NCBI GenBank assembly: GCA_964450915.1
Contig: CAYVFG010000001.1
Location: 1,694-65,693 of the forward strand
DNA length: 64,000 nucleotides
Origin: an uncultured Candidatus Saccharibacteria bacterium
GTDB taxonomy: Bacteria > Patescibacteriota > Andersenbacteria > UBA10190
Reading direction: 5' to 3'
Position numbers and translations under genes: made by a program
The notes under the pieces: model-generated
Seen by the model: only the letters and a program-made list of their open reading frames with translations
Databases searched by the model: none
Told to the model about the DNA's origin: nothing
Shown: piece by piece, positions 2-37,887 of the stretch
Numbering within the stretch: the first letter of the stretch is position 1
How the letters are laid out: each line of letters opens with the position of its first letter

Positions 2-2161
2 ATCGTCAACAATTCGGCCAGCGTGCAGACGATTAGCTTTGGTGGTACGGGCATCACCCTGGGTGCAGCACAGACGTGGAATTCAGGCCTTGTCCCGTTG
101 GGGGGGCTGAGTGTGGGCTCTGCGGTTGATCTGGCAGGTCAGGCACTGACGGTCGATGGCACCAACAATACAACCATCTCGGGTGCGATCTCTGACACGG
201 TTGTCGGCGGCTCACTTGTCAAAAATGGTTTAGGAACGCTTCTTTTGAGCGGCACGAACACCTTCACTGGGACCACCACCGTCAATCAGGGCATCCTGCA
301 GCTTCAAAACGGAGCAGCGATTGCAGACACGTCCGCAGTGACCGTGACGGCACCAGGTTCACTCGACCTGCTCACAAGTGAAACCATCGGCAGCCTTGCA
401 GGCAGCGGCGACACCACCCTCAACGCCAATACCCTGACCACAGGCGGTGACAACACCTCAACCACCTACAGTGGTGTTCTGAGTGGCGTCGGCGGCTCAC
501 TGGTCAAAAATGGCGCAGGAACGTTCACGACATCGAACATCCTTCCCAACACCTATACGGGCACCACGGCAGTCAACGCGGGAACTCTCAATGTGCTGGG
601 CACCCATGCCGGTGGCGGAAATTACACCATTGCCGCAGGCGCCACGCTTTCAGGCACGGGAATCATCACAGAGGCTGCGGGAGCTTCCATCTTCAACAAC
701 GGGGCGATTGTTGTAGGCGATTCCACAGTCATTCCTGTTGCATCCACACTCTCAATCACCACCTCAGGCGCAGGCGCGATCACCATGGGAGCCGGCAGTA
801 CTTTGGCGGTCGATCTCTTCACCGGTGCCGGTCTTGGAAACAACACCGTCATTCCAGGTTCTTCTGACACGTTCAACCTCGGCGGCAATCTCAATTCTGT
901 TGCTGGCGGCACCCTGGTCATTGGCAATCCTACAGCGATGACAGGCTTCACGGGTGGAGACAGCTGGAAAGTGGTGAATCTCGTTCCAGGCTCCATTACC
1001 GGCAATCTGGGTCTCACCGGCAATCTCGACACCTCTGCTCTGAATCTCACAGCGACTCAGGTGGGCAATTTCAGCCAGACTTCCGGTGTCTTCACGATCA
1101 TCGACACCATCACCGGTTTGCAAATGGCCAACGCCATGGGGCAGGCCGTGCTTGCCAGTACTCAGAGTGTCCTCACGGATGTGAATGGACGCCTGTTCTT
1201 CCTCCGTGCGGGTCAGGGCGACCTGTCCGATGACAGCGAGTACGACCAGGCCGTGGTCAATGATCCGGGCAACGGTTCTGGCAAGAACCCTGCACCAAGA
1301 CCAACGGTTCAGCGCCGTCCCCAGACGGGTCTGTGGCAGGTTTTTGCCACGGCAAACTACAACAACGCCAGGCTCGGCGCTCTCGGCAGTCAGCAGGCGG
1401 GAATCCAGTCTGACAGCTGGAGTCCAGGAGTCGGCGCTGAGGTTCATGTCACACCGAATGTGGCCATTGGTTTCGCCCTCAACTGGCTGGAGTCCAAACA
1501 GACCTTCGGGAATGGCGTCGGCTCCATGGACATGAATGGTTATGCACTGAGCGCCTACACTTCTTATGTGAAGAAGGCATTTTGGGCGGATCTCCTTTAT
1601 AGCTTCGGCAGCTATGACATCGAAACGAACCGCAACCCGATCGGGTTCGGCATGGCTAACGGTAACACCGACGCCTACACCAACACGGTGCAGTTTAACT
1701 CGGGCTGGAACTTCCGTTTCCAGAACAACAGCTTGGTGACCGGTCCGTTCATTGGACTCGACTACACCCACGTCTCCATTGACGCCTATGGAGAGTCTGG
1801 TGGCGGCCTTGGGGCCCTGGCCTACAACAAACGTACCGCTGAGTCCCTGATCTCCCGCATTGGCTGGTCGGTGAGCAAGTATGTCAAAACAGACTTCGCC
1901 GTCATCACTGCACAGGCCCGTCTGAGCTACGAGCGCCAGAACTTGAGCAACAACAGCGGCGCCACCATTGGCCTCATCAATCAGCCATTCGTGGTAAGCG
2001 GCGGCAGTCAGAGCTATGGCCAGGATTACATGGTCGCAGGAGCTGGCCTGAACTTCCAGTTCACGCCAAACCTCGGTTTGCTCCTCAACTACCAGGGTCA
2101 GTTCTTCCGTCAGTCAGTGCAGGCTCATTACGTGGGCCTGCGCCTCAGCTACAAATTCTAA
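2..2161 (+). CDS. Autotransporter-family outer-membrane protein (passenger with beta-strand repeats plus C-terminal beta-barrel), 5'-partial: frame is open to the window start
   Basis: G/T/S-rich repetitive passenger (GTLLLSGTNTFTGTTTVNQGILQLQNG repeated); C-terminal beta-barrel-like domain ending ...LRLSYKF (aromatic terminal residue); intrinsic terminator follows. Confidence 0.7.
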   Translation: MVNNSASVQTISFGGTGITLGAAQTWNSGLVPLGGLSVGSAVDLAGQALTVDGTNNTTISGAISDTVVGGSLVKNGLGTLLLSGTNTFTGTTTVNQGILQLQNGAAIADTSAVTVTAPGSLDLLTSETIGSLAGSGDTTLNANTLTTGGDNTSTTYSGVLSGVGGSLVKNGAGTFTTSNILPNTYTGTTAVNAGTLNVLGTHAGGGNYTIAAGATLSGTGIITEAAGASIFNNGAIVVGDSTVIPVASTLSITTSGAGAITMGAGSTLAVDLFTGAGLGNNTVIPGSSDTFNLGGNLNSVAGGTLVIGNPTAMTGFTGGDSWKVVNLVPGSITGNLGLTGNLDTSALNLTATQVGNFSQTSGVFTIIDTITGLQMANAMGQAVLASTQSVLTDVNGRLFFLRAGQGDLSDDSEYDQAVVNDPGNGSGKNPAPRPTVQRRPQTGLWQVFATANYNNARLGALGSQQAGIQSDSWSPGVGAEVHVTPNVAIGFALNWLESKQTFGNGVGSMDMNGYALSAYTSYVKKAFWADLLYSFGSYDIETNRNPIGFGMANGNTDAYTNTVQFNSGWNFRFQNNSLVTGPFIGLDYTHVSIDAYGESGGGLGALAYNKRTAESLISRIGWSVSKYVKTDFAVITAQARLSYERQNLSNNSGATIGLINQPFVVSGGSQSYGQDYMVAGAGLNFQFTPNLGLLLNYQGQFFRQSVQAHYVGLRLSYKF

Positions 2162-29787: not shown

Positions 29788-30012
29788 CTACTTTACGCTA
29801 ATCTCCAGCAGCTTTTTGGTACTTGTTCGCCCGCGTGCCAGCCTCACCTGCGTCGTCGGCACGCCATAATACTGCGCCACCAGTTTTATTATCGCCCAAT
29901 TCGCCCGCCCCTTTTCGGGCGCCTCCTTCACATACACAACCAAATTCTCCTCGTCGATTTTCTCAACCCGACTCTCCCGGGCATGAACCTTCGCCTTGAT
30001 TGTGATGTACAT
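29788..30012 (-). CDS. DUF167/YggU-family small protein
   Basis: MYITIKAKVHARESRVEKIDEENLVVYVKEAPEKGRANWAIIKLVAQYYGV resembles the UPF0235 fold signature. Confidence 0.55.
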   Translation of the reverse strand: MYITIKAKVHARESRVEKIDEENLVVYVKEAPEKGRANWAIIKLVAQYYGVPTTQVRLARGRTSTKKLLEISVK

Positions 30013-30179
30013 ATTTAAACTTTAGCATACTGGTCGCTTGCCCTGCGAAGCTCGTAAGCGTAGTAGGGTCATCCCGGACTTGATCCGGGATCCAGAAAAT
30101 CCCTTGCAAACTCACGAACACTTTCGGAACAATAGAAATATTGAAAAATTAATCACTTATTTTCAATTTAATCATACAT

Positions 30180-30389
30180 ATGAAACCAAAATATCTTCGA
30201 AATAGCGGTAAGCAATGGACACCACAAGAGCAAATAACTCTTTTAAATTTGGCTATGCGAAATACACCAACACGAGTAATAGGGCTCGAATTAGGAAGAC
30301 CTGAAGCAGGCGTTTATGCGAAAGCAAGAGAGCTTGGCATCAGTCTTCATCCAACAAATCAATCTCCCTATAACCGAAGGGCAAAATAG
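30180..30389 (+). CDS. Small putative helix-turn-helix protein (69 aa) at the edge of the AT-rich island
   Basis: WTPQEQITLLNLAMRNTPTRVIGLELGRPEAGVYAKARELGISL resembles an HTH. Confidence 0.35.
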   Translation: MKPKYLRNSGKQWTPQEQITLLNLAMRNTPTRVIGLELGRPEAGVYAKARELGISLHPTNQSPYNRRAK

Positions 30390-30506
30390 GAAAAAATTAT
30401 AACTTCTTTAATAGCGCCTGGTATAGGATCGATTTTTTTCAAGCGTATCTCTTTCTGCATCACGTGGTAGGAATTTACAATCCTATATATTCGCAAGAAT
30501 CGACTT

Positions 30507-31847
30507 CTAAACGATTCGAATATTTACCCTGTCTTTAGCGACACAGATCGAATTATTTATAGCATAGCATTCGACATAAGATCTGCTCGGAAATGCAGTG
30601 CTCTCTATACCATTTTTCGTACCGCCTTTAGTAATTTCACCTCTTGGATCTTTAGAATTATCACTATTCTTAACCTTCCACCAATAATCATCTGCTCCGG
30701 TTTCATTATTTCTGATAGAAAATCTTATTTTTCGTGTCCTATGACCGCCCGAGGAAACGCCATTTTTTCTTAAAAGAGGCGTTGCTTTTAACCAGCCATG
30801 CAAGAAGCCGCTAAGGGGGTGAACATTCCCATCAATTTTAAATACCAGGCCCTGATCAATCAGAGTTTTGATTTTAAAATCGAATAGATATTCTTCCGAT
30901 GCTATTCTTGAAGTAAAATCAATTTCCATTAGTTTTTCTATCGAACCTTCTTCGCTGAGTCGCTCTAGCTTGATTAGAAAATTATCCCTCGCTGTTTTGA
31001 TTTTTTCCTTCTGAACCTCCGTTAGCTTGTCTAGATAGTCATCAATAAATTTATCGCTATTTGCACGGTCATGAATTTGGTTAGGCTTATTTATTATATC
31101 CGGCAATTCAACAAAAAATTTAAAAATGGCATCAAATATCTCTAGATTATTGTTCTCTTGGAAAAATATTGTGACAATTTGCTCAAGATGAAATGACTTT
31201 AGTTTGAGCTCATTATCCATGTCTTCCAAATTATTTTTCCATTTTTTGACAATCTTGGAAGTTTTTCTAAATTCTCCGCTGGTAGCATTATCTATTTCCG
31301 AAGCCACTTTAATATATCCCCTAGGATCAGATGTAATCCATCCCATATCGCCATGCTGCTGCGAAAGCTTCTCATAATACATAGTACGGTTTTTATGTTT
31401 TTCCTGAATCACTTCCGGCACCTTATATACATCTTCACTAAATTCATTTTTTGAGAAAATATAAACAGGAACAATATCAACAGAGAATACCTCCTCGCTA
31501 CTCTCAAAATATGCAACAGTTACAGAGTGGGTTTGTAGCTGCACTTTAATCTTATAATCAGTAGGGTTGCTATAGTCGCTTTCAATTTTATCCCGCAATT
31601 CTTCTAAAGAGTCTAATGGATTATGAATATTTTCATCCCAATTTCCCAAAAAATACAGGATATCAAGGTCCTGTACATGGGTAATAGCTGTAAATCGCGG
31701 ATACGATCCAATTTGGATACAATTATTATCCCCTAGCAAATCCTGAAAAGATTCGTAGATCTCCTTAATTTGTTCCCGCTCACCCTCCTTCGGAGATAGC
31801 GTTCGTGCGTAACTCCGTAACTTTTCGTTAAACTTATCTTTTTTCAT
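30507..31847 (-). CDS. Minimal nucleotidyltransferase, SMODS/CD-NTase-like (446 aa) with uncharacterised C-terminal region
   Basis: IGSYPRFTAITHVQDLDILYFL (GS...DxD NTase motif) and downstream FSVDIVP third acidic residue; AT-rich. Confidence 0.5.
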   Translation of the reverse strand: MKKDKFNEKLRSYARTLSPKEGEREQIKEIYESFQDLLGDNNCIQIGSYPRFTAITHVQDLDILYFLGNWDENIHNPLDSLEELRDKIESDYSNPTDYKIKVQLQTHSVTVAYFESSEEVFSVDIVPVYIFSKNEFSEDVYKVPEVIQEKHKNRTMYYEKLSQQHGDMGWITSDPRGYIKVASEIDNATSGEFRKTSKIVKKWKNNLEDMDNELKLKSFHLEQIVTIFFQENNNLEIFDAIFKFFVELPDIINKPNQIHDRANSDKFIDDYLDKLTEVQKEKIKTARDNFLIKLERLSEEGSIEKLMEIDFTSRIASEEYLFDFKIKTLIDQGLVFKIDGNVHPLSGFLHGWLKATPLLRKNGVSSGGHRTRKIRFSIRNNETGADDYWWKVKNSDNSKDPRGEITKGGTKNGIESTAFPSRSYVECYAINNSICVAKDRVNIRIV

Positions 31848-32391
31848 AACTCGTGGTGATCATTGATATCATGATGTCGTTAAGTAATCGGCCACGAAAA
31901 TTACTAAGGATCACATTGCGTATTTCGTTAATTTTTTTGATCTCAGTAATAGGGATTGATCCAAGCTCTTGAGGAGCATATATAATAAGTGCTGTCTGGT
32001 CGTTTTTCTGCCTTAAAATATCGTCTATTGAATCAGCCCAATCATGCCAAAATATTAAAAAAAGTGTAGCTTTTTCAGCACGACCAATATCACGCCTATC
32101 CATTATTTCAATAATATTCTTATCACTAAACAGTTCCGAATCTAAGAGCATATTCTTTAAATGTGGAAGGTTTTCACCTTTTGCAAAAACTGCAATTTTC
32201 CTCCTAGCAAGACCATTTCCTAACCTAAGCAACGCTGGCCATATGCCTATAGCCCAAGTAATTACTCCAGCTACCACAGTAATCAGGACAACAAGCGTAC
32301 TTAGTCTCCCCAACCAATCAATTACTGTTAAAAAATCCATAATTACAATATTAGAATGAAAAGTAGAACGTGTAAATACGTTCTTGTGCAC
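31834..32391 (-). CDS. 2TM membrane protein with C-terminal Rossmann/TIR/SLOG-like domain, translationally coupled to the NTase (putative effector)
   Basis: Two N-terminal TM helices (LVVLITVVAGVITWAIGIWPALL); alternating beta-strand/helix pattern IAVFAKG...ATLFLIFW...ALIIYAP; 14-nt overlap with downstream NTase. Confidence 0.4.
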   Translation of the reverse strand: MHKNVFTRSTFHSNIVIMDFLTVIDWLGRLSTLVVLITVVAGVITWAIGIWPALLRLGNGLARRKIAVFAKGENLPHLKNMLLDSELFSDKNIIEIMDRRDIGRAEKATLFLIFWHDWADSIDDILRQKNDQTALIIYAPQELGSIPITEIKKINEIRNVILSNFRGRLLNDIMISMITTSYEKR

Positions 32392-32417
32392 ATCTTATCC
32401 ACAGGTATAATGAAAAT

Positions 32418-33038
32418 ATGTCCAAACTATTACCAAAGCTTCATCCGACGCAAAAAAAAATTCTTGATCTCTTAAAAGAGCATTCTGATAATCCCCTTAC
32501 GATGATTGAGCTCAAAGACTTGGTCGGAGCCTCCTCTACGAGTGTAATTCATCACCACATATTACGCTTAGAGAAGAAGGGGTACTTGAGACGCAACCCA
32601 TCAAATCCTAGAGACTACAGAATTCTTACAGATTCCCCAGATAACTATATGGCATATATTAATTTGTATGGCCTCGCACAGTGCGGTCCTAACGGATCGC
32701 TTCTGGAAGGAGATCCTGTTGATCGTATTAAGATGGAGTCTCGAATGTTAGGTTTTCCATCCGAAGAAGCGTTCATGGTACAGGCTAAGGGTAACTCGAT
32801 GGCACCTCACATTAAGTCTGGAAATTTAGTAATTGCACAAAAGACACAAGACTTTAGTAGGCTAAATGGGAAAGTAGTTGTTTGTGTTAATGATGGAAAA
32901 GCGCTGATTAAAAAAATGACAATTCAAAATCAAGAAATATTACTATCTTCGTTTAATGAAAAATATCATCCATTTGCCGCGGCGGATGATTTTCGAGTGG
33001 AAGGACTAGTTCGCGGAGTCCTGTCGAGATCGTTCTAG
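32418..33038 (+). CDS. LexA-like repressor (N-terminal winged HTH + C-terminal S24 peptidase domain)
   Basis: GNSMAPHIKSGNLVIAQ (Ser nucleophile) ... VVVCVNDGKALIKKM (Lys general base); divergent from the NTase operon. Confidence 0.7.
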   Translation: MSKLLPKLHPTQKKILDLLKEHSDNPLTMIELKDLVGASSTSVIHHHILRLEKKGYLRRNPSNPRDYRILTDSPDNYMAYINLYGLAQCGPNGSLLEGDPVDRIKMESRMLGFPSEEAFMVQAKGNSMAPHIKSGNLVIAQKTQDFSRLNGKVVVCVNDGKALIKKMTIQNQEILLSSFNEKYHPFAAADDFRVEGLVRGVLSRSF

Positions 33039-33091
33039 TCCGAACTATTCTTTTTGGTCAAAAATAATCAATCTTCTGATTTAGCAATTCG

Positions 33092-35428
33092 TTAAAGTAA
33101 TTCCATGAAATCAACCCAGGAGGTATTATCATTTACTTCAAAACCATCCACAGATTCGTTATCGCATTTCCAAATACCGCCTATGTTTGCCACGATGCCA
33201 CCGACAATGTTTTTACCTTGCTTGTTCCATTTTTGTATGTAGGCATACAGGCCCTTTGATTTGTCGATTGTTTCAAATGATTCCACAGTCTGTTTTTTCT
33301 TTGTATCAAATAATCCGATGCGCCCATCTTTGAACTGGACTATAAAATCAACATAAAATGCATCTACGGTATGCGTGCTTCTATTCTCGTACGGCACTGC
33401 AAAATGCTCGCTTCCGTGATCGCCATTCTTATACCACCATGCAATTTTTTCGCTATTTGCTTCTAGGAAGTCCATGAAAGCCGTTTCGTTGATTCTGCCA
33501 GTGTATTCTTTGCGAATATAGCAGGGGGCCATAGCAGCGAGCTTGTACTGCTCTAAGGCCTCGTATTCGTCCGTATAGGATAATTGATCTGGTACATTCC
33601 ATAGCCTTCCTGCTTGGCTCATAGCAAACTGTTGTTTTGCTTCTATTTCTTCACGTCGAACCGGACCATATACAGCAAGTGCCTTGTCGATTATATGCCT
33701 CAATTCACTCTTCTCTTTTTTTGCCATGTCATTGACGAGGATTTTATATATCTCGTAGCTGTCGCTATCAACAATGCTTTTGATCCATACGCGCAACGCT
33801 GATTTGAGCGTGCCCCATGATCGTTCAGGAGCATATTTTTTGCCGTTATCTTCTTGTATCGTTAATATCTCATAGCAATATAAGTTGAACAGTTTTTCTA
33901 AGTCATTGTGCGATATTTCGTGCTCCAATTCTTTATCGCTTTTGCGTATCTCTTTAATAAAATCGTCATACACTTTAATTTCTGCATCTACGATCAAGCG
34001 ATTGTTCAGCTTAAAGTTTTTCAGCTCAAATTTCTTTTTTACCTTAGCAAGTTTTGCAGTGAGAATATCGGAGCCTGTTATGCCGAGTTCGCTGTCTGCG
34101 ACTTCTGCAAAAGTAGTTTGAAACGATGCACCCAGGTCGCCATAGTCTGTACGGCTCAAATAGATTGATTCTAGATCAATATTTTCGACGCCTTTTCTCT
34201 TATTACTTATCAGACTAGTAGCTTTATTTTTTGTGCCTTCCGGTAGCTTGATTTCGTTCTTCTTATAGTTCGTATACAGATAAGCGATGTTGATTAAAGG
34301 CTGTGTTGCATAATGATATCCACGAGGCATACGCAATATACGGCCTACGGTTTGCTCGTGAAAAATAGGACTTTTCACTTCTCGAAACATGACGAGTATG
34401 CTGGCTCGTGGGCAATCCCAGCCGGTAGCTGCCGCTTGTTTAAATATCAAAAATTGCACACTTGATCGATTACTTTCAACGGCTTCAAGATTCTCTTTTT
34501 CTTTTGATAGCCAAACTGCAATCTCATTTTCTTTCACGCCTTTTTGCTTTAGGTATCTTTTTACAGTTTCAAGTTTGCTTTCAGTCTCAACGTCTTTCTT
34601 CTCTGATTCGTCACTAGGAAGCTGGATCAATACAAGCGGGTTTATGTCCTCGTCGATTTCTTGGTATGCGCGTAAAAGCTCGAGACGTTTATTGTACGCC
34701 ATTTCAAGCAACATTCTGTCTTGGTCATCTTCCGTTACTTTTGCAAAGTCTTCTTTTGTTTGTACGACAATTTTTTCTTTGATCAATCCTTGCTCAATAA
34801 CGTCTTCGTGTCGAACGTATACATATCCGGCCTTGCCGTCGTCTTCATCTTCTCGGCTTGGTACGTTTATCGGGGTAGCTGTTACGTGAACGATAATGCG
34901 AGGGCTTATAAGTTCAACCAAGTCATCTGCGAGCGTTGTGCTTGCGTCTCTGTGTGCCTCGTCAATAAGCAATACGATTTCTCGGCCATCTTCTTGGGTA
35001 TTGCGTATAAATTCATCAAATGTCGTGTTTTGTTCGCCTTCTCTGCGTAGTAAGCGGTTTTCTTTACTTGTCGATTTTAGTTTTTGCCAGTTGATAAAGA
35101 ATATCTCGTTTTTCTTCAACTTCTTTTCCTTCAAATCGTTCAAGTCTGTTAACTGTAATTCGCTTGCACCGCCATAATACTCGAAAAACTTTTTCTTGCT
35201 TTGTTCATATGATTCTTCACTGAAACTAACCCATACATATGCTCGGTCCGCATCAAATTGAGGATCATTTACAAGATCACGCAAGAAATGTGCCATCACT
35301 ACAGTCTTTCCACTACCTGTAGGAGCTTTAAACGTAAGCGGTAATTGTTTGTTGCCGGTTTCCCATAGAGTAAGAAACTTCTTTCGTAATTCGGTAATCG
35401 CTGTTTGTTGGAATGGCTTTAGTTTCAT
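33092..35428 (-). CDS. Type III restriction enzyme Res subunit (SF2 helicase/endonuclease)
   Basis: APTGSGKT Walker A, LIDEAHR DEAH box, helicase C motifs; 4-nt overlap with the upstream mod gene. Confidence 0.8.
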   Translation of the reverse strand: MKLKPFQQTAITELRKKFLTLWETGNKQLPLTFKAPTGSGKTVVMAHFLRDLVNDPQFDADRAYVWVSFSEESYEQSKKKFFEYYGGASELQLTDLNDLKEKKLKKNEIFFINWQKLKSTSKENRLLRREGEQNTTFDEFIRNTQEDGREIVLLIDEAHRDASTTLADDLVELISPRIIVHVTATPINVPSREDEDDGKAGYVYVRHEDVIEQGLIKEKIVVQTKEDFAKVTEDDQDRMLLEMAYNKRLELLRAYQEIDEDINPLVLIQLPSDESEKKDVETESKLETVKRYLKQKGVKENEIAVWLSKEKENLEAVESNRSSVQFLIFKQAAATGWDCPRASILVMFREVKSPIFHEQTVGRILRMPRGYHYATQPLINIAYLYTNYKKNEIKLPEGTKNKATSLISNKRKGVENIDLESIYLSRTDYGDLGASFQTTFAEVADSELGITGSDILTAKLAKVKKKFELKNFKLNNRLIVDAEIKVYDDFIKEIRKSDKELEHEISHNDLEKLFNLYCYEILTIQEDNGKKYAPERSWGTLKSALRVWIKSIVDSDSYEIYKILVNDMAKKEKSELRHIIDKALAVYGPVRREEIEAKQQFAMSQAGRLWNVPDQLSYTDEYEALEQYKLAAMAPCYIRKEYTGRINETAFMDFLEANSEKIAWWYKNGDHGSEHFAVPYENRSTHTVDAFYVDFIVQFKDGRIGLFDTKKKQTVESFETIDKSKGLYAYIQKWNKQGKNIVGGIVANIGGIWKCDNESVDGFEVNDNTSWVDFMELL

Positions 35429-37101
35429 AGCTCGGCATTTATCTGCTTATATACTTCGATAATTGGCTCAGGTATATCGTTTACGGTAATGTTTGGAAAT
35501 TCTGCAAAGTCATCTTGATATTGACCTGTAGTCCAAGAGAAAATATATAGAGCGACTTTTTCTAGCTTTGCCAGCTTCTTTGTTAGTTCGGGCAGTTTTC
35601 GCATGTCTTCTCGAAAATATATCGCGCAATGTCGCTTGCCATCTGTAAAAATCTGATAGTACTCAGTTTCATCCGTTTTTTCCCTCAATGTGTTTTCACG
35701 CAATGCAATCATCTCGCCTATATGACGAGCAAGCCTCACTCTGTCGTCATCAGTTACTTCATCTTCACTGTTTTTTTGAACAAAGTTTCGGCGATAATAT
35801 CTTAAATTACCTGGAATAGGATTTACTATTTTTCCATTATACTCATAACCCTCTATTACTTTTTTAATACGAGGGTAACAAACTCTTTCTGCGATAGCAT
35901 TCTCGTTGTTTGTGCATAAAATAAATTGCCTCTGACCCCCGTCTTCTTTATTGAGCATCATTGCAGCATGCCCAGTAGTTCCCGACCCTGCAAAGAAATC
36001 TAGGACTACTGCATCTTGCTTCGCCCCGTGACGCAAAAAGAATTTTATCAGTTCTGTTGGTTTTGGATTTTCAAATATATCTTTTTTACCAAAAATTCTT
36101 GTTAATTCGTTAGTTCCATCTGTAGTAGTTGCAACATCAAGTAGGATGCTTCTTTCTTTGATTTTTTTCACCTCTCCTTCTTTGAAATAGATTTTTTCAT
36201 ACGATAACCATTTTCCTCTTTTCTTTTGCCAAAAAATCAGATCTTTCTCAACTAGCATATTCATTCGTTTCTTACCTACGCGCCATCGCCCATCACCACC
36301 ATCGGGAGCAATAGGATAAACATTTTTTCCGTCAGGAGATTTAATCGAGAAATACATTTTTGGCCTATCTTCTCGTCGAGCTGTATTACCCCATTTCGCT
36401 AATTTGACTGCTGTAAACTTCCCGCTTTGATCTTCTTTATTAAATTCTGATTCTTCAATAAGTATTTCTTCGTCAAGCCATTTAAATTCTTGAGATCTAG
36501 CATATACAAGAACATACTCATGCTCTGTAACAAAATAAGCATCCGCTTGACCTCCGCCTTCCTTTTTTCTCCAAATTAGAGTTCCAACAAAATTATTCTC
36601 ATCAAAGATTTCATCACAAAGCATCCTTAACGGTGCTTGCTCATTATTATCGATACTAATAAAAATTGCTCCTGTTGATTTTAGAAGAGACTTCGCAATT
36701 TTAAGACGTTTTTCCATAAAAGAAAGCCAGGCACTGTGCCGAAAACCATCTTCTTTATCAACAAGCTTGTCATTATATATAAAATCGTTATTGCCAGTGT
36801 TATAAGGCGGATCAATATAAATAACATCTATTTTTCCCGTATGAGTATATCTCAAAACTGAAAGCGCATGATAATTATCACCCTCAATCATTATATTCGT
36901 AGGACCTGTTTCGTCATTGCGTATATCTTTATCGTTTACTGGTTCCAATATTGGAAAATTGTTTTTGCACATTTCCGCAACATCTTCAGGTTTATCCCTC
37001 CATACAAGACCATACTTCTTTCCATTTAAAACGTTTTCAAGCTCGTGCACGAGCTCTTCTTTTGTTAGTTTTGAATAGTCTTTTTTCTTTAGTCTGCTCA
37101 C
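35425..37101 (-). CDS. Type III DNA methyltransferase Mod subunit (N6-adenine, DPPY)
   Basis: VIYIDPPYNTGNNDF catalytic motif; FFAGSGTTGHAA AdoMet motif. Confidence 0.8.
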   Translation of the reverse strand: MSRLKKKDYSKLTKEELVHELENVLNGKKYGLVWRDKPEDVAEMCKNNFPILEPVNDKDIRNDETGPTNIMIEGDNYHALSVLRYTHTGKIDVIYIDPPYNTGNNDFIYNDKLVDKEDGFRHSAWLSFMEKRLKIAKSLLKSTGAIFISIDNNEQAPLRMLCDEIFDENNFVGTLIWRKKEGGGQADAYFVTEHEYVLVYARSQEFKWLDEEILIEESEFNKEDQSGKFTAVKLAKWGNTARREDRPKMYFSIKSPDGKNVYPIAPDGGDGRWRVGKKRMNMLVEKDLIFWQKKRGKWLSYEKIYFKEGEVKKIKERSILLDVATTTDGTNELTRIFGKKDIFENPKPTELIKFFLRHGAKQDAVVLDFFAGSGTTGHAAMMLNKEDGGQRQFILCTNNENAIAERVCYPRIKKVIEGYEYNGKIVNPIPGNLRYYRRNFVQKNSEDEVTDDDRVRLARHIGEMIALRENTLREKTDETEYYQIFTDGKRHCAIYFREDMRKLPELTKKLAKLEKVALYIFSWTTGQYQDDFAEFPNITVNDIPEPIIEVYKQINAEL

Positions 37102-37176
37102 AATATCAACACTACAACATAAAACGGTCCTTCACACACTCAATATAGCCCAGGGAGGTACATTTTGCGAACGTTC

Positions 37177-37887
37177 TCAGTTCTTGAGCATCCCCTCTTC
37201 CCGAAAACTGAAAAACTCTGTTTTACTGATAATAACGTGATCGAGCAGGCCAATACCCATTAATATTCCGGCGTCGAATAGTCGTTTTGTAACCTCGATA
37301 TCCGCTTCGCTGGGATGCGGGTCGCCGGATGGATGATTGTGCGATACTGCGATACTTGCAGCATGATGGGATATGGCCGCTTGGAATGTTTCGCGAGGAT
37401 GGACGAGGCTGGAATTGAGCGTGCCTACGGTAAGCAAGTCCGTGCCTACTATCCTGTTTCTATTATCAAACGAAATAACGTAAAAATGTTCTTTATTCCA
37501 GTTTCGGATTTCTTGGCGAATATGTTCCGCAATATGCTCAGGAGATGCGACGGCGCGTGCAGTATTTTTTATTTTCTCTTTACTACGTTCAGTTTTTAAA
37601 ACTCTTCTGGCAATTTCTAGACTTGCTTTTAATTGCAACGCTTTTGCAGACCCAAGGCCTTTAATATTTTGCAAATCTTCAAGCGATGCATTAACGATGC
37701 TATCTAATGATCCGAACGTTGCCATAAGTTCTTTTGCGATATCCATAACCGGATTACCTGCAACACCTCGACCTATTAACACAGCGAGTAATTCTTGAGC
37801 GGATATTTTTTCGGCACCATCTTTTATCATTCGCTCGCGCGGACGTTCTTCGAATGGTAAATCATGAACGGTGAAGGAGCTCTTCAT
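37177..37887 (-). CDS. radC: RadC-like JAB/MPN domain protein
   Basis: N-terminal HhH region; HNHPSGDPHPSEADIEVTKRL JAMM motif. Confidence 0.85.
   Translation of the reverse strand: MKSSFTVHDLPFEERPRERMIKDGAEKISAQELLAVLIGRGVAGNPVMDIAKELMATFGSLDSIVNASLEDLQNIKGLGSAKALQLKASLEIARRVLKTERSKEKIKNTARAVASPEHIAEHIRQEIRNWNKEHFYVISFDNRNRIVGTDLLTVGTLNSSLVHPRETFQAAISHHAASIAVSHNHPSGDPHPSEADIEVTKRLFDAGILMGIGLLDHVIISKTEFFSFREEGMLKN

What the first reader, a model, noticed from the sequence alone, without database searches (positions are those of the whole stretch)
32392..33038. LexA-like S24 repressor divergently transcribed from the NTase/2TM operon and adjacent to Type III R-M
- A complete HTH + S24 autoprotease repressor (Ser in GNSMAP, Lys in GKALIKKM) sits 26 bp from the start of the 2TM-NTase operon on the opposite strand.
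- This arrangement suggests DNA-damage- or phage-induced derepression of the defence module, analogous to CapH/CapP-type control of CBASS.
- The shared 26-bp intergenic region would have to hold both promoters and the operator.
Basis: inference. Interest (0 to 1): 0.5.

Follow-up and report, generated by a model that had tools for sequence, protein, structure and literature searches.

The report
LexA repressor wired to CBASS defence
A self-cleaving LexA-type DNA-damage repressor shares one compact two-way promoter with a CBASS anti-phage operon, and the same pairing, usually with restriction-modification genes on the other side, recurs in many unrelated uncultured bacteria, so DNA damage probably switches this defence on.

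Summary
The ORF is real. 32418-33038(+) encodes a 206-aa LexA (winged-helix domain plus S24 peptidase; Cys89-Gly90 cleavage site, Ser127, Lys165). The neighbours are a type I CBASS (TM effector + CD-NTase) and a Type III R-M.

The "26 bp" gap is an ORF-calling artefact. Homologues place the effector start at ATG 32340, giving a 77-bp intergenic region. That region holds back-to-back promoters that overlap a conserved three-part operator, TAGAAtG / TAGAACG-N6-CGTTCTT (32352-32385).

The pairing is not chance:
- 4 of 80 distant LexA loci from other genomes carry the same effector-cyclase operon divergent from lexA.
- 27 of 56 informative effector loci (22 of 45 after dereplication) have a LexA-like gene immediately upstream.
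- The LexA-like gene usually heads a DNA-methyltransferase/Vsr operon, or is fused to a methyltransferase.

Near-identical relatives keep lexA and the promoter but carry other cargo in the divergent slot.

It is not a prophage repressor. In this Ca. Andersenbacteria genome it looks like the chromosomal lexA rather than a CBASS-only regulator.

LexA repression of CBASS with DNA-damage derepression is well supported by comparative evidence but untested experimentally. I rate it a new variant of DNA-damage control of CBASS, of the kind known from CapW, CapH/CapP and CapK/CapS.

The parts
32418..33038 (+). lexA: 206-aa LexA-family repressor. It has a winged-helix LexA_DNA_bind domain (res 7-65) and a Peptidase_S24 domain (res 83-198).
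   Evidence: Full-length match to TIGR00498 lexA (91 bits, below the equivalog cut-off of 110.95). More than 500 homologues at 55-60% identity, many named LexA, in Patescibacteria.
32682..32687 (+). Codons for Cys89-Gly90, the predicted self-cleavage bond (the UmuD-type Cys-Gly variant of Ala-Gly).
   Evidence: Invariant C89/G90 in alignment A1. Aligned with the E. coli LexA VAAG motif.
32796..32798 (+). Codon for Ser127, the catalytic nucleophile (G-N-S-M).
   Evidence: Invariant in A1. Aligned with E. coli LexA SGMSM.
32910..32912 (+). Codon for Lys165, the general base of the Ser/Lys dyad.
   Evidence: Invariant in A1. Aligned with E. coli LexA TVKRL.
32365..32384 (.). LexA box palindrome AGAACGT-GTAAAT-ACGTTCT (half-sites H2 and H3).
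   Evidence: The only exact match in the window. Identical in L001. L002 has AGAATGT-N6-ACATTCT, a symmetric double change. GAAC-N10-GTTC lies at the lexA promoter in about 41 of 56 matches across 1.2 Mb of loci, against 15 expected by chance overall. Consensus.
32352..32358. Third half-site H1 (TAGAATG; family consensus TAGAACA). It is a direct repeat 12 bp upstream of H2 here (14 bp in most of the aligned family loci) and overlaps the -10 of the CBASS promoter.
   Evidence: Box-anchored alignment of 43 loci; TAGAACA is conserved at this position.
32348..32376 (-). Predicted CBASS promoter: -35 TTTACA (32376-32371, inside the palindrome spacer), 17-nt spacer, -10 TAATAT (32353-32348). Seven nt separate the -10 from the effector ATG, so the mRNA is probably leaderless.
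   Evidence: The homologous promoter in L043 is TTGACT-17-TATACT (10/12). The TTGACT in the box spacer is conserved.
32384..32411 (+). Predicted lexA promoter: -35 TTGTGC (abuts H3), 16-nt spacer, -10 TATAAT. Six nt separate the -10 from the ATG, so the mRNA is probably leaderless.
   Evidence: Read from the sequence. The -35 has only 3 of 6 matches, so the scan tool does not list it. The positional homologue in L043 is TTGACA-16-TATAAT, 12/12. Conserved.
32395..32403 (+). Perfect DnaA-box 9-mer TTATCCACA inside the lexA promoter spacer. Its role is unknown.
   Evidence: Sequence. A perfect box lies within 120 bp of lexA in 11 of 76 family loci, against a background of 0.004 per 120 bp.
31834..32340 (-). 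CBASS effector, 168 aa: an N-terminal transmembrane segment plus a globular C-terminal domain. The start is ATG 32340, not GTG 32391.
   Evidence: PADLOC PDLC00664 'Effector 1TM', 5e-59. Homologue alignment A2.
30507..31847 (-). CD-NTase (CBASS oligonucleotide cyclase) with a C-terminal AGS-C domain. It overlaps the effector gene by 14 nt, so the two form an operon.
   Evidence: PADLOC PDLC00785, 9e-176. Pfam AGS_C and SMODS. NCBIfam CBASS_cyclase_b, below cut-off. GS...DLD motif visible.
33092..37101 (-). Type III restriction-modification operon: mod 35425-37101 and res 33092-35428. It is convergent with lexA, with a 53-bp gap.
   Evidence: PADLOC MTase_III 3e-110 and REase_III 5e-15; Pfam N6_N4_Mtase and ResIII.
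30000..37101 (.). Low-GC island (35-41% against 44-54% in the flanks) that holds p69, the CBASS, lexA and the Type III R-M.

Best explanation
The gene is a cleavable LexA-family repressor of a Candidatus Andersenbacteria (Patescibacteria) chromosome.

Anatomy. Its 77-bp upstream region holds two back-to-back sigma-70-type promoters: one for lexA and one for a type I CBASS operon (TM effector, then CD-NTase). A three-part LexA operator is laid over them.
- The H2/H3 palindrome covers the CBASS -35 and abuts the lexA -35.
- H1 covers the CBASS -10.

Proposed mechanism. LexA dimers bound here repress both lexA and CBASS. DNA damage or phage-derived ssDNA, presumably through RecA filaments, triggers self-cleavage at Cys89-Gly90 by the Ser127/Lys165 dyad. 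Both promoters are then freed, and levels of the abortive-infection effector and its cyclase rise.

Wider pattern. In many lineages a LexA-like gene sits at the centre of a small defence island. It drives a DNA-methyltransferase/Vsr operon on its own strand, or is fused to the methyltransferase. It also offers a LexA-repressed outward promoter to exchangeable cargo, of which this CBASS is the commonest.

Shown: domain architecture, catalytic residues, operator conservation, promoter overlap, recurrence, cargo exchange.
Inferred: DNA binding, repression of CBASS, RecA dependence, induction by damage.
For: Protein:
- Pfam LexA_DNA_bind and S24 both match.
- C89, G90, S127 and K165 are invariant and align to E. 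coli LexA.

Operator:
- The palindrome is unique in the window.
- It is identical in a relative, and a more distant relative carries a symmetric compensatory change.
- The family consensus over 43 loci is TAGAACA-N7-TAGAACA-N6-TGTTCTTGAC.
- The box is essentially confined to lexA promoters in 1.2 Mb of fetched DNA.

Promoters:
- The minus-strand TTTACA-17-TAATAT overlaps the box.
- L043 has TTGACA-16-TATAAT (12/12) and TTGACT-17-TATACT (10/12), back to back.
- The 24 bp between the box and the effector ATG leave no room for a separate promoter.

Recurrence:
- 4 of 80 LexA loci from other GTDB species carry the same effector (43-60% id). Three of them also retain the cyclase (31-51% id); L017 is cut off by the contig end. 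All four have it divergent from lexA.
- 27 of 56 effector loci with at least 750 bp of upstream sequence have a LexA-like gene within 700 bp. After dereplication the figure is 22 of 45.
- Overall, 24 are divergent and 8 co-directional. Five of the co-directional ones have gaps of 2-66 bp; the other three have gaps of 252-386 bp.
- CBASS-linked LexAs fall in at least 5 separate places of the LexA tree.

Cargo exchange at the promoter edge:
- Window against L001: homology is confined to 32347-33037.
- L017 against L018: an OLD/AriA-like ATPase stands in place of CBASS.
- L088 against L061: 97% nt identity up to the divergent -10.
- L153 against L038 shows the same.

R-M link:
- 26 of 80 LexA loci have a methyltransferase or Vsr gene directly downstream.
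- Every one of the 18 divergent CBASS + LexA-like metagenome loci with sequence beyond lexA, except one that was not identified (L131), has a methyltransferase/Vsr next to it or fused to it.

Organism: TypA is 93% identical to a Ca. Andersenbacteria protein.
Against: - There is no experimental evidence of binding, repression or induction.
- The window lexA -35 is weak (TTGTGC, 3/6), and both transcripts would have to be leaderless.
- The protein scores below NCBI's LexA equivalog cut-off (91 against 110.95 bits).
- In the one fetched locus that holds recA (L075), no GAAC-N10-GTTC box precedes recA. So it is not shown that this LexA family runs a canonical SOS regulon or that recA is co-induced.
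- recA is not in the window.
- Close relatives keep lexA without CBASS, so in this lineage the pairing is recent and could be neutral.
- The R-M in the window is convergent, not in the lexA operon as in most other loci.
- The promoter and operator assignments are consensus matches.
Confidence: 0.7

Rival explanations
1. LexA regulates only itself. lexA merely lies in a defence-island hot spot, so CBASS, R-M and other systems accumulate beside it without being controlled by it.
For: - Both flanks of lexA are fully different in related genomes, and all of them are defence-like: Hhe/PDC-S37, an OLD-like ATPase, a Cas4-like nuclease, methyltransferases.
- The box is also found where the divergent gene is not a defence gene, for example the LTD protein and small proteins.
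Against: - The cargo promoter is built into the operator (-35 in the spacer, -10 on H1), and this is conserved whatever the cargo.
- Cargo replacement stops exactly at the promoter edge.
- Co-directional LexA-like-effector operons exist.
- About half of the effector loci have a LexA-like neighbour, far above what island co-localisation with one particular gene would give.
Confidence: 0.15
2. The LexA-like protein is primarily a controller of restriction-modification, the functional equivalent of a C protein. It times or boosts methyltransferase expression. The CBASS link is secondary, and in this window it may be irrelevant.
For: - 26 of 80 LexA loci have a methyltransferase or Vsr gene directly downstream with gaps from -26 to +73 bp, except L008, L046 and L048 (40-116 bp).
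- LexA-methyltransferase fusion proteins exist.
- The R-M association is commoner than the CBASS association.
Against: - In the window, mod-res is convergent with lexA and has its own upstream region without a LexA box.
- This reading does not exclude CBASS control; the two could coexist.
Confidence: 0.1
3. It is the cI-like repressor of a resident prophage or other mobile element, unrelated to the neighbouring genes.
For: - S24 repressors are typical of temperate phages.
- The gene lies in a low-GC island.
- One IMG/VR contig carries a family member.
Against: - The N-terminal domain is the LexA winged helix, not a lambda-type HTH.
- No phage genes were seen among the neighbours examined. They are CBASS, R-M, RadC, DUF167 and, further out, TypA, PBP and transporters.
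- Only 1 of 2.9 million viral contigs has a relative, and there it precedes genes that look like a Type I R-M (read by eye from the translations; not run through any family search).
- A 91%-identical orthologue sits in a related genome in a different, non-phage context.
Confidence: 0.02
4. The palindrome followed by a T-run acts as an intrinsic terminator on the minus strand. It would stop read-through from the mod-res operon (antisense through lexA) into CBASS, rather than serve as an operator.
For: The terminator scan flags 32384-32365 (-) and the homologous site in L043. The scan of 30000-33200 listed no terminator between res and lexA.
Against: - The stem is only 7 bp with 3 G-C pairs, and the tail is T-poor (ACTTTTCATT).
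- Conservation follows the half-site sequence (GAAC/GTTC plus a third direct half-site), not just pairing.
- The site is present where there is no upstream minus-strand operon.
Confidence: 0.03

Closest known systems
CapH/CapP (CBASS-associated HTH repressor plus metallopeptidase; Lau et al., bioRxiv 10.1101/2022.04.27.489752)
   Same: A repressor encoded upstream of CBASS binds the promoter region and is removed by proteolysis after DNA damage, which raises CBASS expression. Both are also found next to other defence systems.
   Different: CapH/CapP is a two-protein system: an XRE-type HTH plus a separate ssDNA-stimulated Zn-peptidase related to ImmA/IrrE. Here one protein combines a LexA winged helix with an S24 Ser/Lys self-cleaving domain, and the presumed signal is RecA filaments. 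The paper does not mention LexA or S24.
CapW/BrxR (wHTH-WYL-WCX repressors) and CapK/CapS (kinase plus repressor)
   Same: They are divergently encoded regulators that couple CBASS or BREX expression to DNA damage.
   Different: They sense ssDNA directly through the WYL domain, or act by phosphorylation, and involve no proteolysis. They have no sequence or domain relationship to the protein here. PADLOC has no LexA-type regulator model; the only PADLOC hits are weak wHTH matches.
Canonical LexA / SOS regulon (E. coli, B. subtilis Cheo box GAAC-N4-GTTC)
   Same: The domain architecture, the catalytic dyad and an autoregulatory operator in its own promoter are the same. GAAC/GTTC half-sites match the Gram-positive box. 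LexA control of toxic cargo (colicins, toxin-antitoxin genes, integron integrase) is established knowledge.
   Different: - The cleavage bond is Cys-Gly, as in UmuD.
- The palindrome spacer is N10 instead of N4, and there is an extra direct half-site.
- The protein scores below the TIGR00498 cut-off.
- No box was seen before recA in L075.
- The family is systematically embedded between R-M and defence cargo.
- The published Patescibacteria LexA regulon study (Sanchez-Osuna et al. 2017, Environ Microbiol 19:3465; cited) could not be read, so its motif could not be compared.
Controller (C) proteins of restriction-modification systems and HTH-methyltransferase fusions
   Same: A small DNA-binding protein is encoded at the head of an R-M operon and autoregulates it. 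Some methyltransferases carry an N-terminal HTH domain.
   Different: C proteins are XRE-type HTH proteins of about 80 aa without a protease domain. Here an S24 self-cleavage module is interposed, which would make control responsive to DNA damage. Classical C-protein-like genes of 68-74 aa are additionally present next to the putative REase genes in several loci.
Phage cI / ICE SetR S24 repressors
   Same: They are S24 self-cleaving repressors that derepress a mobile gene set on SOS induction.
   Different: They have a lambda-type HTH N-domain and sit in a phage or ICE context. Neither is present here.

Membership tests
LexA family repressor | N-terminal winged-helix LexA DNA-binding domain (PF01726) | tested here: met
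   40.4 bits against a cut-off of 23.7, residues 7-65.
LexA family repressor | C-terminal S24 peptidase domain with a Ser/Lys dyad | tested here: met
   PF00717, 57.5 bits. S127 and K165 are invariant and aligned to the E. coli LexA catalytic motifs.
LexA family repressor | Scissile Ala-Gly (or Cys-Gly) bond in the linker | tested here: met
   Cys89-Gly90 is invariant in the family and aligned to E. coli A84-G85. Cys-Gly is the UmuD variant (established knowledge).
LexA family repressor | Operator in its own promoter (autoregulation) | tested here: met
   Conserved palindrome plus a third half-site overlapping the -35. Binding itself was not tested.
LexA family repressor | Curated equivalog score (NCBIfam TIGR00498) | tested here: not met
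   91 bits against a cut-off of 110.95, although the match is full-length (3-199 of 203).
LexA family repressor | Control of core SOS genes (recA, translesion polymerases) | tested here: inconclusive
   No recA in the window. In L075, recA lacks the box. This is a single case, and whole genomes were not available.
LexA family repressor | RecA*-stimulated self-cleavage | not testable with these tools
   Needs biochemistry.
Type I CBASS | CD-NTase cyclase with a GS...DxD active site | tested here: met
   PDLC00785, 9e-176. SMODS and AGS_C domains. GSYPRF...DLD motif in the translation.
Type I CBASS | Adjacent effector gene and no Cap2/Cap3 or HORMA/TRIP13 genes | tested here: met
   Effector PDLC00664, 5e-59, overlapping the cyclase gene. 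No further genes lie in the operon.
CapH/CapP regulator pair | XRE-type HTH repressor plus a separate Zn-metallopeptidase | tested here: not met
   A single wHTH + S24 protein. No metallopeptidase gene lies nearby.
CapW/BrxR | WYL and WCX domains | tested here: not met
   No WYL match in Pfam or PADLOC.
Prophage cI-type repressor | Lambda-type HTH and a phage gene context | tested here: not met
   The N-domain is the LexA winged helix. The chromosomal context has no phage genes among the neighbours examined. One relative was found in 2.9 M viral contigs.
Type III restriction-modification | Mod (N6/N4 methyltransferase) followed by Res (SF2 helicase-nuclease) in one operon | tested here: met
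   MTase_III 3e-110, REase_III 5e-15. The two ORFs overlap by 4 nt.

The most novel reading that the evidence does not exclude
LexA-like self-cleaving repressors may be the hub of a modular, horizontally shuffled two-layer immune island. The repressor heads, or is fused to, the methyltransferase of an R-M system. It also supplies a tightly LexA-covered outward promoter into which abortive-infection cargo is swapped at the transcription start. That cargo is most often this TM-effector CBASS, and elsewhere OLD/AriA-like ATPases.

In this reading, DNA breaks made by the first layer (restriction of phage DNA, or self-restriction) are read through RecA/LexA. This boosts methylation and licenses the second, suicidal layer. 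A conserved DnaA box would add a replication-status input.
Probability: 0.3. Interest if true: 0.8.

Novelty: new variant of a known kind. Interest (0 to 1): 0.62.

Why it matters
Abortive-infection systems such as CBASS must be kept quiet until needed. Three DNA-damage-responsive regulator types are known for them: CapW, CapH/CapP and CapK/CapS. This finding adds the classical SOS repressor architecture itself as a fourth, apparently widespread solution. About half of the sampled loci of one CBASS effector family have it.

It also ties that repressor physically to restriction-modification, which suggests how a first-line and a second-line defence could be coupled through DNA damage.

The work gives concrete, testable parts:
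- a 77-bp region with a defined three-part operator;
- two promoters;
- cleavage and catalytic residues.

It provides natural "swap" pairs that show a promoter-edge cassette exchange. It also bears on what LexA does in the small genomes of Patescibacteria, where the visible partners of lexA are defence genes rather than repair genes.

Tried and rejected
1. GTG 32391 as the effector start (26-bp gap). Rejected: the profile and homologues begin at ATG 32340, and GTG would lie inside the lexA promoter.
2. Prophage repressor. Rejected.
3. A second LexA box in the window, for example before mod-res. There is only a 2-mismatch hit inside radC (37713), within chance expectation. The direct-repeat pattern is at chance level. 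The GAAC/GAAC/GTTC cluster just after the radC stop (about 37170-37186) has the wrong spacing.
4. LexA box upstream of recA. recA is absent from the window, and there is no box in L075, so the regulon is unresolved.
5. Synteny between the window and its nearest relative. There is none beyond lexA, so 'insertion into a conserved backbone' could not be mapped on the far sides.
6. Known RNA element in the region. No Rfam hit.
7. Literature.
   - No paper in the searchable library links LexA or S24 to CBASS.
   - The Patescibacteria SOS paper could not be obtained.
   - One malformed search failed.
8. CBASS-linked LexAs as a single clade that travels with CBASS. Rejected by the NJ tree, where they are scattered and interleaved with non-CBASS loci. 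The tree is a quick distance tree without support values.
9. Structure prediction and fold search were not used. Sequence profiles were unambiguous for the question asked.
Full report
**1. What is there**

The window carries an ORF at 32418-33038 (+) of 206 aa.
- It matches Pfam LexA_DNA_bind (res 7-65) and Peptidase_S24 (res 83-198), both above the curated cut-offs.
- It aligns over its full length with solved LexA structures. In that alignment G-L-A-Q-C-G-P lies on the E. coli V-A-A-G-E cleavage site, K-G-N-S-M on S-G-M-S-M, and L-I-K-K-M on T-V-K-R-L.
- In an alignment of 25 family members, C89, G90, S127 and K165 are invariant.
- The protein therefore has everything needed for LexA-type self-cleavage, with the Cys-Gly bond known from UmuD.
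- It scores 91 bits on NCBI's LexA equivalog model against a cut-off of 110.95, so it is a divergent LexA.
- More than 500 homologues at 55-60% identity exist. Many are named LexA, mostly from Patescibacteria.

**2. Neighbours**

On the opposite strand lie a 168-aa transmembrane effector (PADLOC PDLC00664, 5e-59) and a 446-aa CD-NTase with an AGS-C domain (PDLC00785, 9e-176). The two genes overlap by 14 nt. Together they form a minimal type I CBASS.

Downstream of lexA and convergent with it is a Type III mod-res operon.

The stretch from about 30.0 to 37.1 kb has 35-41% GC, against 44-54% in the flanks.

The rest of the window is ordinary chromosome, with TypA, a DEAD-box helicase, PBP1 and ABC/MacB transporters. 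TypA is 93% identical to a Candidatus Andersenbacteria protein.

No phage genes were seen among the neighbours examined. A scan of 2.9 million viral contigs found one family member, and there it precedes genes that look, by eye, like Type I R-M genes.

**3. The 26-bp claim**

The 26 bp come from the mechanical GTG start at 32391.
- The PADLOC profile starts at residue 19-23 of that ORF.
- All homologues start at the methionine encoded at 32340.

The real intergenic region is 32341-32417, which is 77 bp.

**4. Anatomy of the 77 bp**

Coordinates are; the elements come.

| Element | Sequence | Position | Strand |
|---|---|---|---|
| Half-site H1 | TAGAATG | 32352-32358 | either |
| Palindrome (H2/H3) | AGAACGT-GTAAAT-ACGTTCT | 32365-32384 | either |
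| CBASS promoter -35 | TTTACA | 32376-32371 | minus |
| CBASS promoter -10 | TAATAT | 32353-32348 | minus |
| Effector start | ATG | 32340 | minus |
| lexA promoter -35 | TTGTGC | 32384-32389 | plus |
| DnaA-box 9-mer | TTATCCACA | 32395-32403 | plus |
| lexA promoter -10 | TATAAT | 32406-32411 | plus |
| lexA start | ATG | 32418 | plus |

- The palindrome is the only exact match in the 64 kb.
- The CBASS -35 lies in the palindrome spacer. A 17-nt spacer separates it from the -10, which begins on H1. Seven nt then separate the -10 from the effector ATG.
- The lexA -35 abuts H3, its spacer is 16 nt, and 6 nt separate its -10 from the ATG.
- Both mRNAs would be leaderless.
- Only 24 bp lie between the box and the effector ATG. 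Any promoter for CBASS inside this region must therefore overlap the operator.

**5. Is the operator real?**

- In a related genome (L001, LexA 91% identical) the 60 nt from H1 to the -10 are identical.
- In a more distant relative (L002, 79%) the palindrome is AGAATGT-N6-ACATTCT. That is a symmetric change on both arms.
- Anchoring 43 independent loci on the box gives the consensus TAGAACA-N7-TAGAACA-agtCAA-N3-TGTTCTTGAC.
  - The spacer CAA/TTG conservation is the -35 TTGACT of the outward promoter.
  - H1 is conserved although it is not part of the lexA promoter.
- Across 1.2 Mb of fetched DNA, GAAC-N10-GTTC occurs 56 times against about 15 expected. About 41 of these lie at lexA promoters.
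- In L043 the scan tool finds TTGACA-16-TATAAT (12/12) and TTGACT-17-TATACT (10/12), back to back on the box.

**6. Is the CBASS pairing more than chance?**

*Forward test.* Eighty LexA loci were taken from 185,579 species-representative genomes.
- Four (L017, L031, L043, L056) carry the same effector (43-60% id) directly upstream and divergent. Three of them also retain the cyclase (31-51% id); L017 is cut off by the contig end.
- Two of the 80 loci (L006 and L043) come from one MAG, so paralogues exist.

*Reverse test.* Eighty effector loci were taken from metagenomes and searched with a LexA profile.

| Measure | Result |
|---|---|
| Loci with at least 750 bp upstream that have a LexA-like gene within 700 bp of the effector start | 27 of 56 |
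| Same, after 90% dereplication | 22 of 45 clusters |
| Divergent arrangement, all loci | 24 |
| Co-directional arrangement, all loci | 8 (five with gaps of 2-66 bp, three with 252-386 bp) |

- Seven belong to the same LexA family as the window (55-66% id). Six are counted in the table; the seventh, L138, is truncated at the contig end and excluded.
- The others are only 22-28% identical and have 11-nt-period direct repeats (TAGAAA or TCGAAA) beside the effector promoter.
- Loci without a LexA-like gene have heterogeneous upstream genes.
- In a neighbour-joining tree, CBASS-linked LexAs lie in at least five places, interleaved with unlinked ones.

**7. Cargo exchange**

| Pair | Extent of homology | What differs |
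|---|---|---|
| Window / L001 | 32347-33037 only, 86% nt | L001 has an LTD-domain protein in the divergent slot and an Hhe/PDC-S37 helicase-nuclease downstream |
| L017 / L018 | 77% identical from just after the outward promoter through lexA-vsr-dcm | L018 carries a 95-aa gene plus an OLD/AriA-like ATPase instead of CBASS |
| L088 / L061 | The blastn alignment (97% nt over 3.6 kb) runs to 8 nt before the effector ATG; read directly, the sequences diverge just after the outward -10 | CBASS against a 102-aa protein |
| L153 / L038 | Same pattern | Same pattern |

The lexA module therefore supplies a LexA-covered outward promoter to exchangeable cargo.

Between the window genome and the L001 genome, TypA is 86% identical, MsrB 85% and a DEAD helicase 73%. 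LexA is 91% identical and its promoter is identical. This hints that the lexA cassette is either unusually constrained or recently exchanged.

**8. The R-M link**

- Directly downstream of lexA and co-directional with it, 26 of 80 loci have one of the following: an Eco57I-type N6 methyltransferase (11), Vsr (6), a C5 methyltransferase (4), an N4/N6 methyltransferase (3) or a D12 methyltransferase (2). In most the gap is from -26 to +73 bp.
- In four of the five CBASS + lexA genome loci (the window included), the other side of lexA is R-M or a methyltransferase. In L031 the downstream 543-aa gene was not identified.
- In the metagenome CBASS + LexA-like loci with enough sequence, the next gene is Vsr, Dcm or an N6 methyltransferase. 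The one exception is L131, whose 360-aa neighbour was not identified.
- Alternatively the LexA-like protein is fused to the methyltransferase. L124 is LexA_DNA_bind + S24 + N6_N4_Mtase. L101 adds N6_Mtase/Eco57I/TaqI_C.
- The window differs in one respect: its Type III operon is convergent and has no recognisable box.

**9. Mechanism proposed**

LexA bound to H1, H2 and H3 occludes both promoters. RecA-stimulated self-cleavage after DNA damage or phage infection derepresses lexA and CBASS.

*Shown:*
- the architecture and residues;
- conservation of the operator and promoters;
- recurrence of the pairing;
- cargo exchange.

*Inferred:*
- binding and repression;
- the RecA signal;
- the physiological logic, namely restriction-generated damage licensing the abortive layer.

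*Weak points:*
- There is no experiment.
- The -35 of the window lexA promoter is weak.
- The model depends on leaderless mRNAs.
- No box precedes recA in the one locus where this could be checked.

**10. Comparison with the known**

DNA-damage control of CBASS is known for CapW, CapH/CapP and CapK/CapS. None of those papers mentions LexA or S24. Searches for CBASS or SMODS together with LexA or S24 found no description of such a regulator. PADLOC has no such component.

The LexA half-sites resemble the Gram-positive GAAC-N4-GTTC box, but with an N10 spacer and an extra half-site. Published LexA motifs vary widely.

I classify the finding as a new variant of a known kind.

Noticed in passing
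window 32395-32403; also L001, L002, L013, L025, L043 (same orientation); L017, L018, L038, L041, L051, L075 (inverted, 11-12 nt before the lexA ATG); L102, L118, L121 (before the effector ATG): A perfect DnaA-box 9-mer, TTATCCACA, lies inside the lexA promoter or leader. It occurs within 120 bp of lexA in 11 of 76 family loci, against a background of about 0.004 per 120 bp. In distant LexA-like systems the same motif lies 5-15 nt before the CBASS effector start. This suggests a DnaA or replication-status input, which is unexplained.
   Followed up: partly
L124 1442-3004(-), L141, L143, L114/L117, L101 1111-3591(-): Single polypeptides of 519-826 aa combine a LexA winged helix, an S24 self-cleaving domain and a DNA methyltransferase (N6_N4_Mtase, or N6_Mtase/Eco57I/TaqI_C). 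They are divergent from a CBASS effector. Self-cleavage would detach the methyltransferase from its DNA-binding domain.
   Followed up: partly
L017 vs L018; L088 vs L061; L153 vs L038; window 32347 vs L001: Closely related lexA-vsr-dcm modules (up to 97% nt identity) carry different genes in the divergent slot: CBASS, an OLD/AriA-like ATPase plus a 95-aa protein, a roughly 100-aa protein, or an LTD protein. The break lies at the edge of the outward promoter or transcription start. No repeat or recombinase that would explain the exchange was looked for.
   Followed up: partly
window 30180-30389 (+): The 69-aa ORF just beyond the CBASS cyclase resembles by eye (shared ...WTP.Q...LHPTNQSPYNRR.K C-terminus) the 72-aa gene that sits divergent from lexA in L027 and L053. 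No direct comparison was run. It has no Pfam, PADLOC or NCBIfam match. It may be a remnant of an earlier lexA-linked arrangement.
   Followed up: no
window 23-2161 (+): A 712-aa ORF has a strong Autotransporter beta-domain match (PF03797, 1.8e-37) plus a PATR repeat. This is unexpected, because the genome otherwise looks like Candidatus Andersenbacteria, a group generally thought to lack an outer membrane. It could mean a real outer-membrane protein, horizontal acquisition or a chimeric contig.
   Followed up: no
window 32340 and 32418; L001 9924/10001; L002 (GTG at about 10016): Both genes flanking the shared promoter start 6-7 nt after their predicted -10 hexamers and have no Shine-Dalgarno sequence, so the mRNAs appear leaderless in both directions. 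In L002 the annotated lexA ATG overlaps the -10, and a GTG aligned with the window start is the likelier start.
   Followed up: partly
L031 2226-2850: The lexA of this Gracilibacteria MAG reads through only with genetic code 25 (UGA = Gly). Standard ORF calling missed it.
   Followed up: yes
L075 2254-3240 (-) and its upstream 150 bp: recA lies 2.7 kb from lexA in this Patescibacteria genome but has no GAAC-N10-GTTC box upstream. This raises the question of whether this LexA family controls recA at all.
   Followed up: partly
window 37165-37190 (minus-strand reading, just after the radC stop): There is a cluster of GAAC/GAAC/GTTC half-sites (AGAACTGAGAACGTTCGCA) abutting a possible -35 of the mod-res operon. 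The spacing does not fit the LexA box, so this is probably chance.
   Followed up: partly
L001 10677-15437 (-); L002 10677-15432 (+): In the two closest relatives the genes flanking lexA are also candidate defence genes. L001 has a 1586-aa Hhe/PDC-S37 helicase-nuclease. L002 has an HATPase_c_3 protein, a Cas4-like PD-(D/E)XK nuclease and a SWIM/PDC-S62 protein. So lexA marks a defence-gene hot spot in this lineage.
   Followed up: partly
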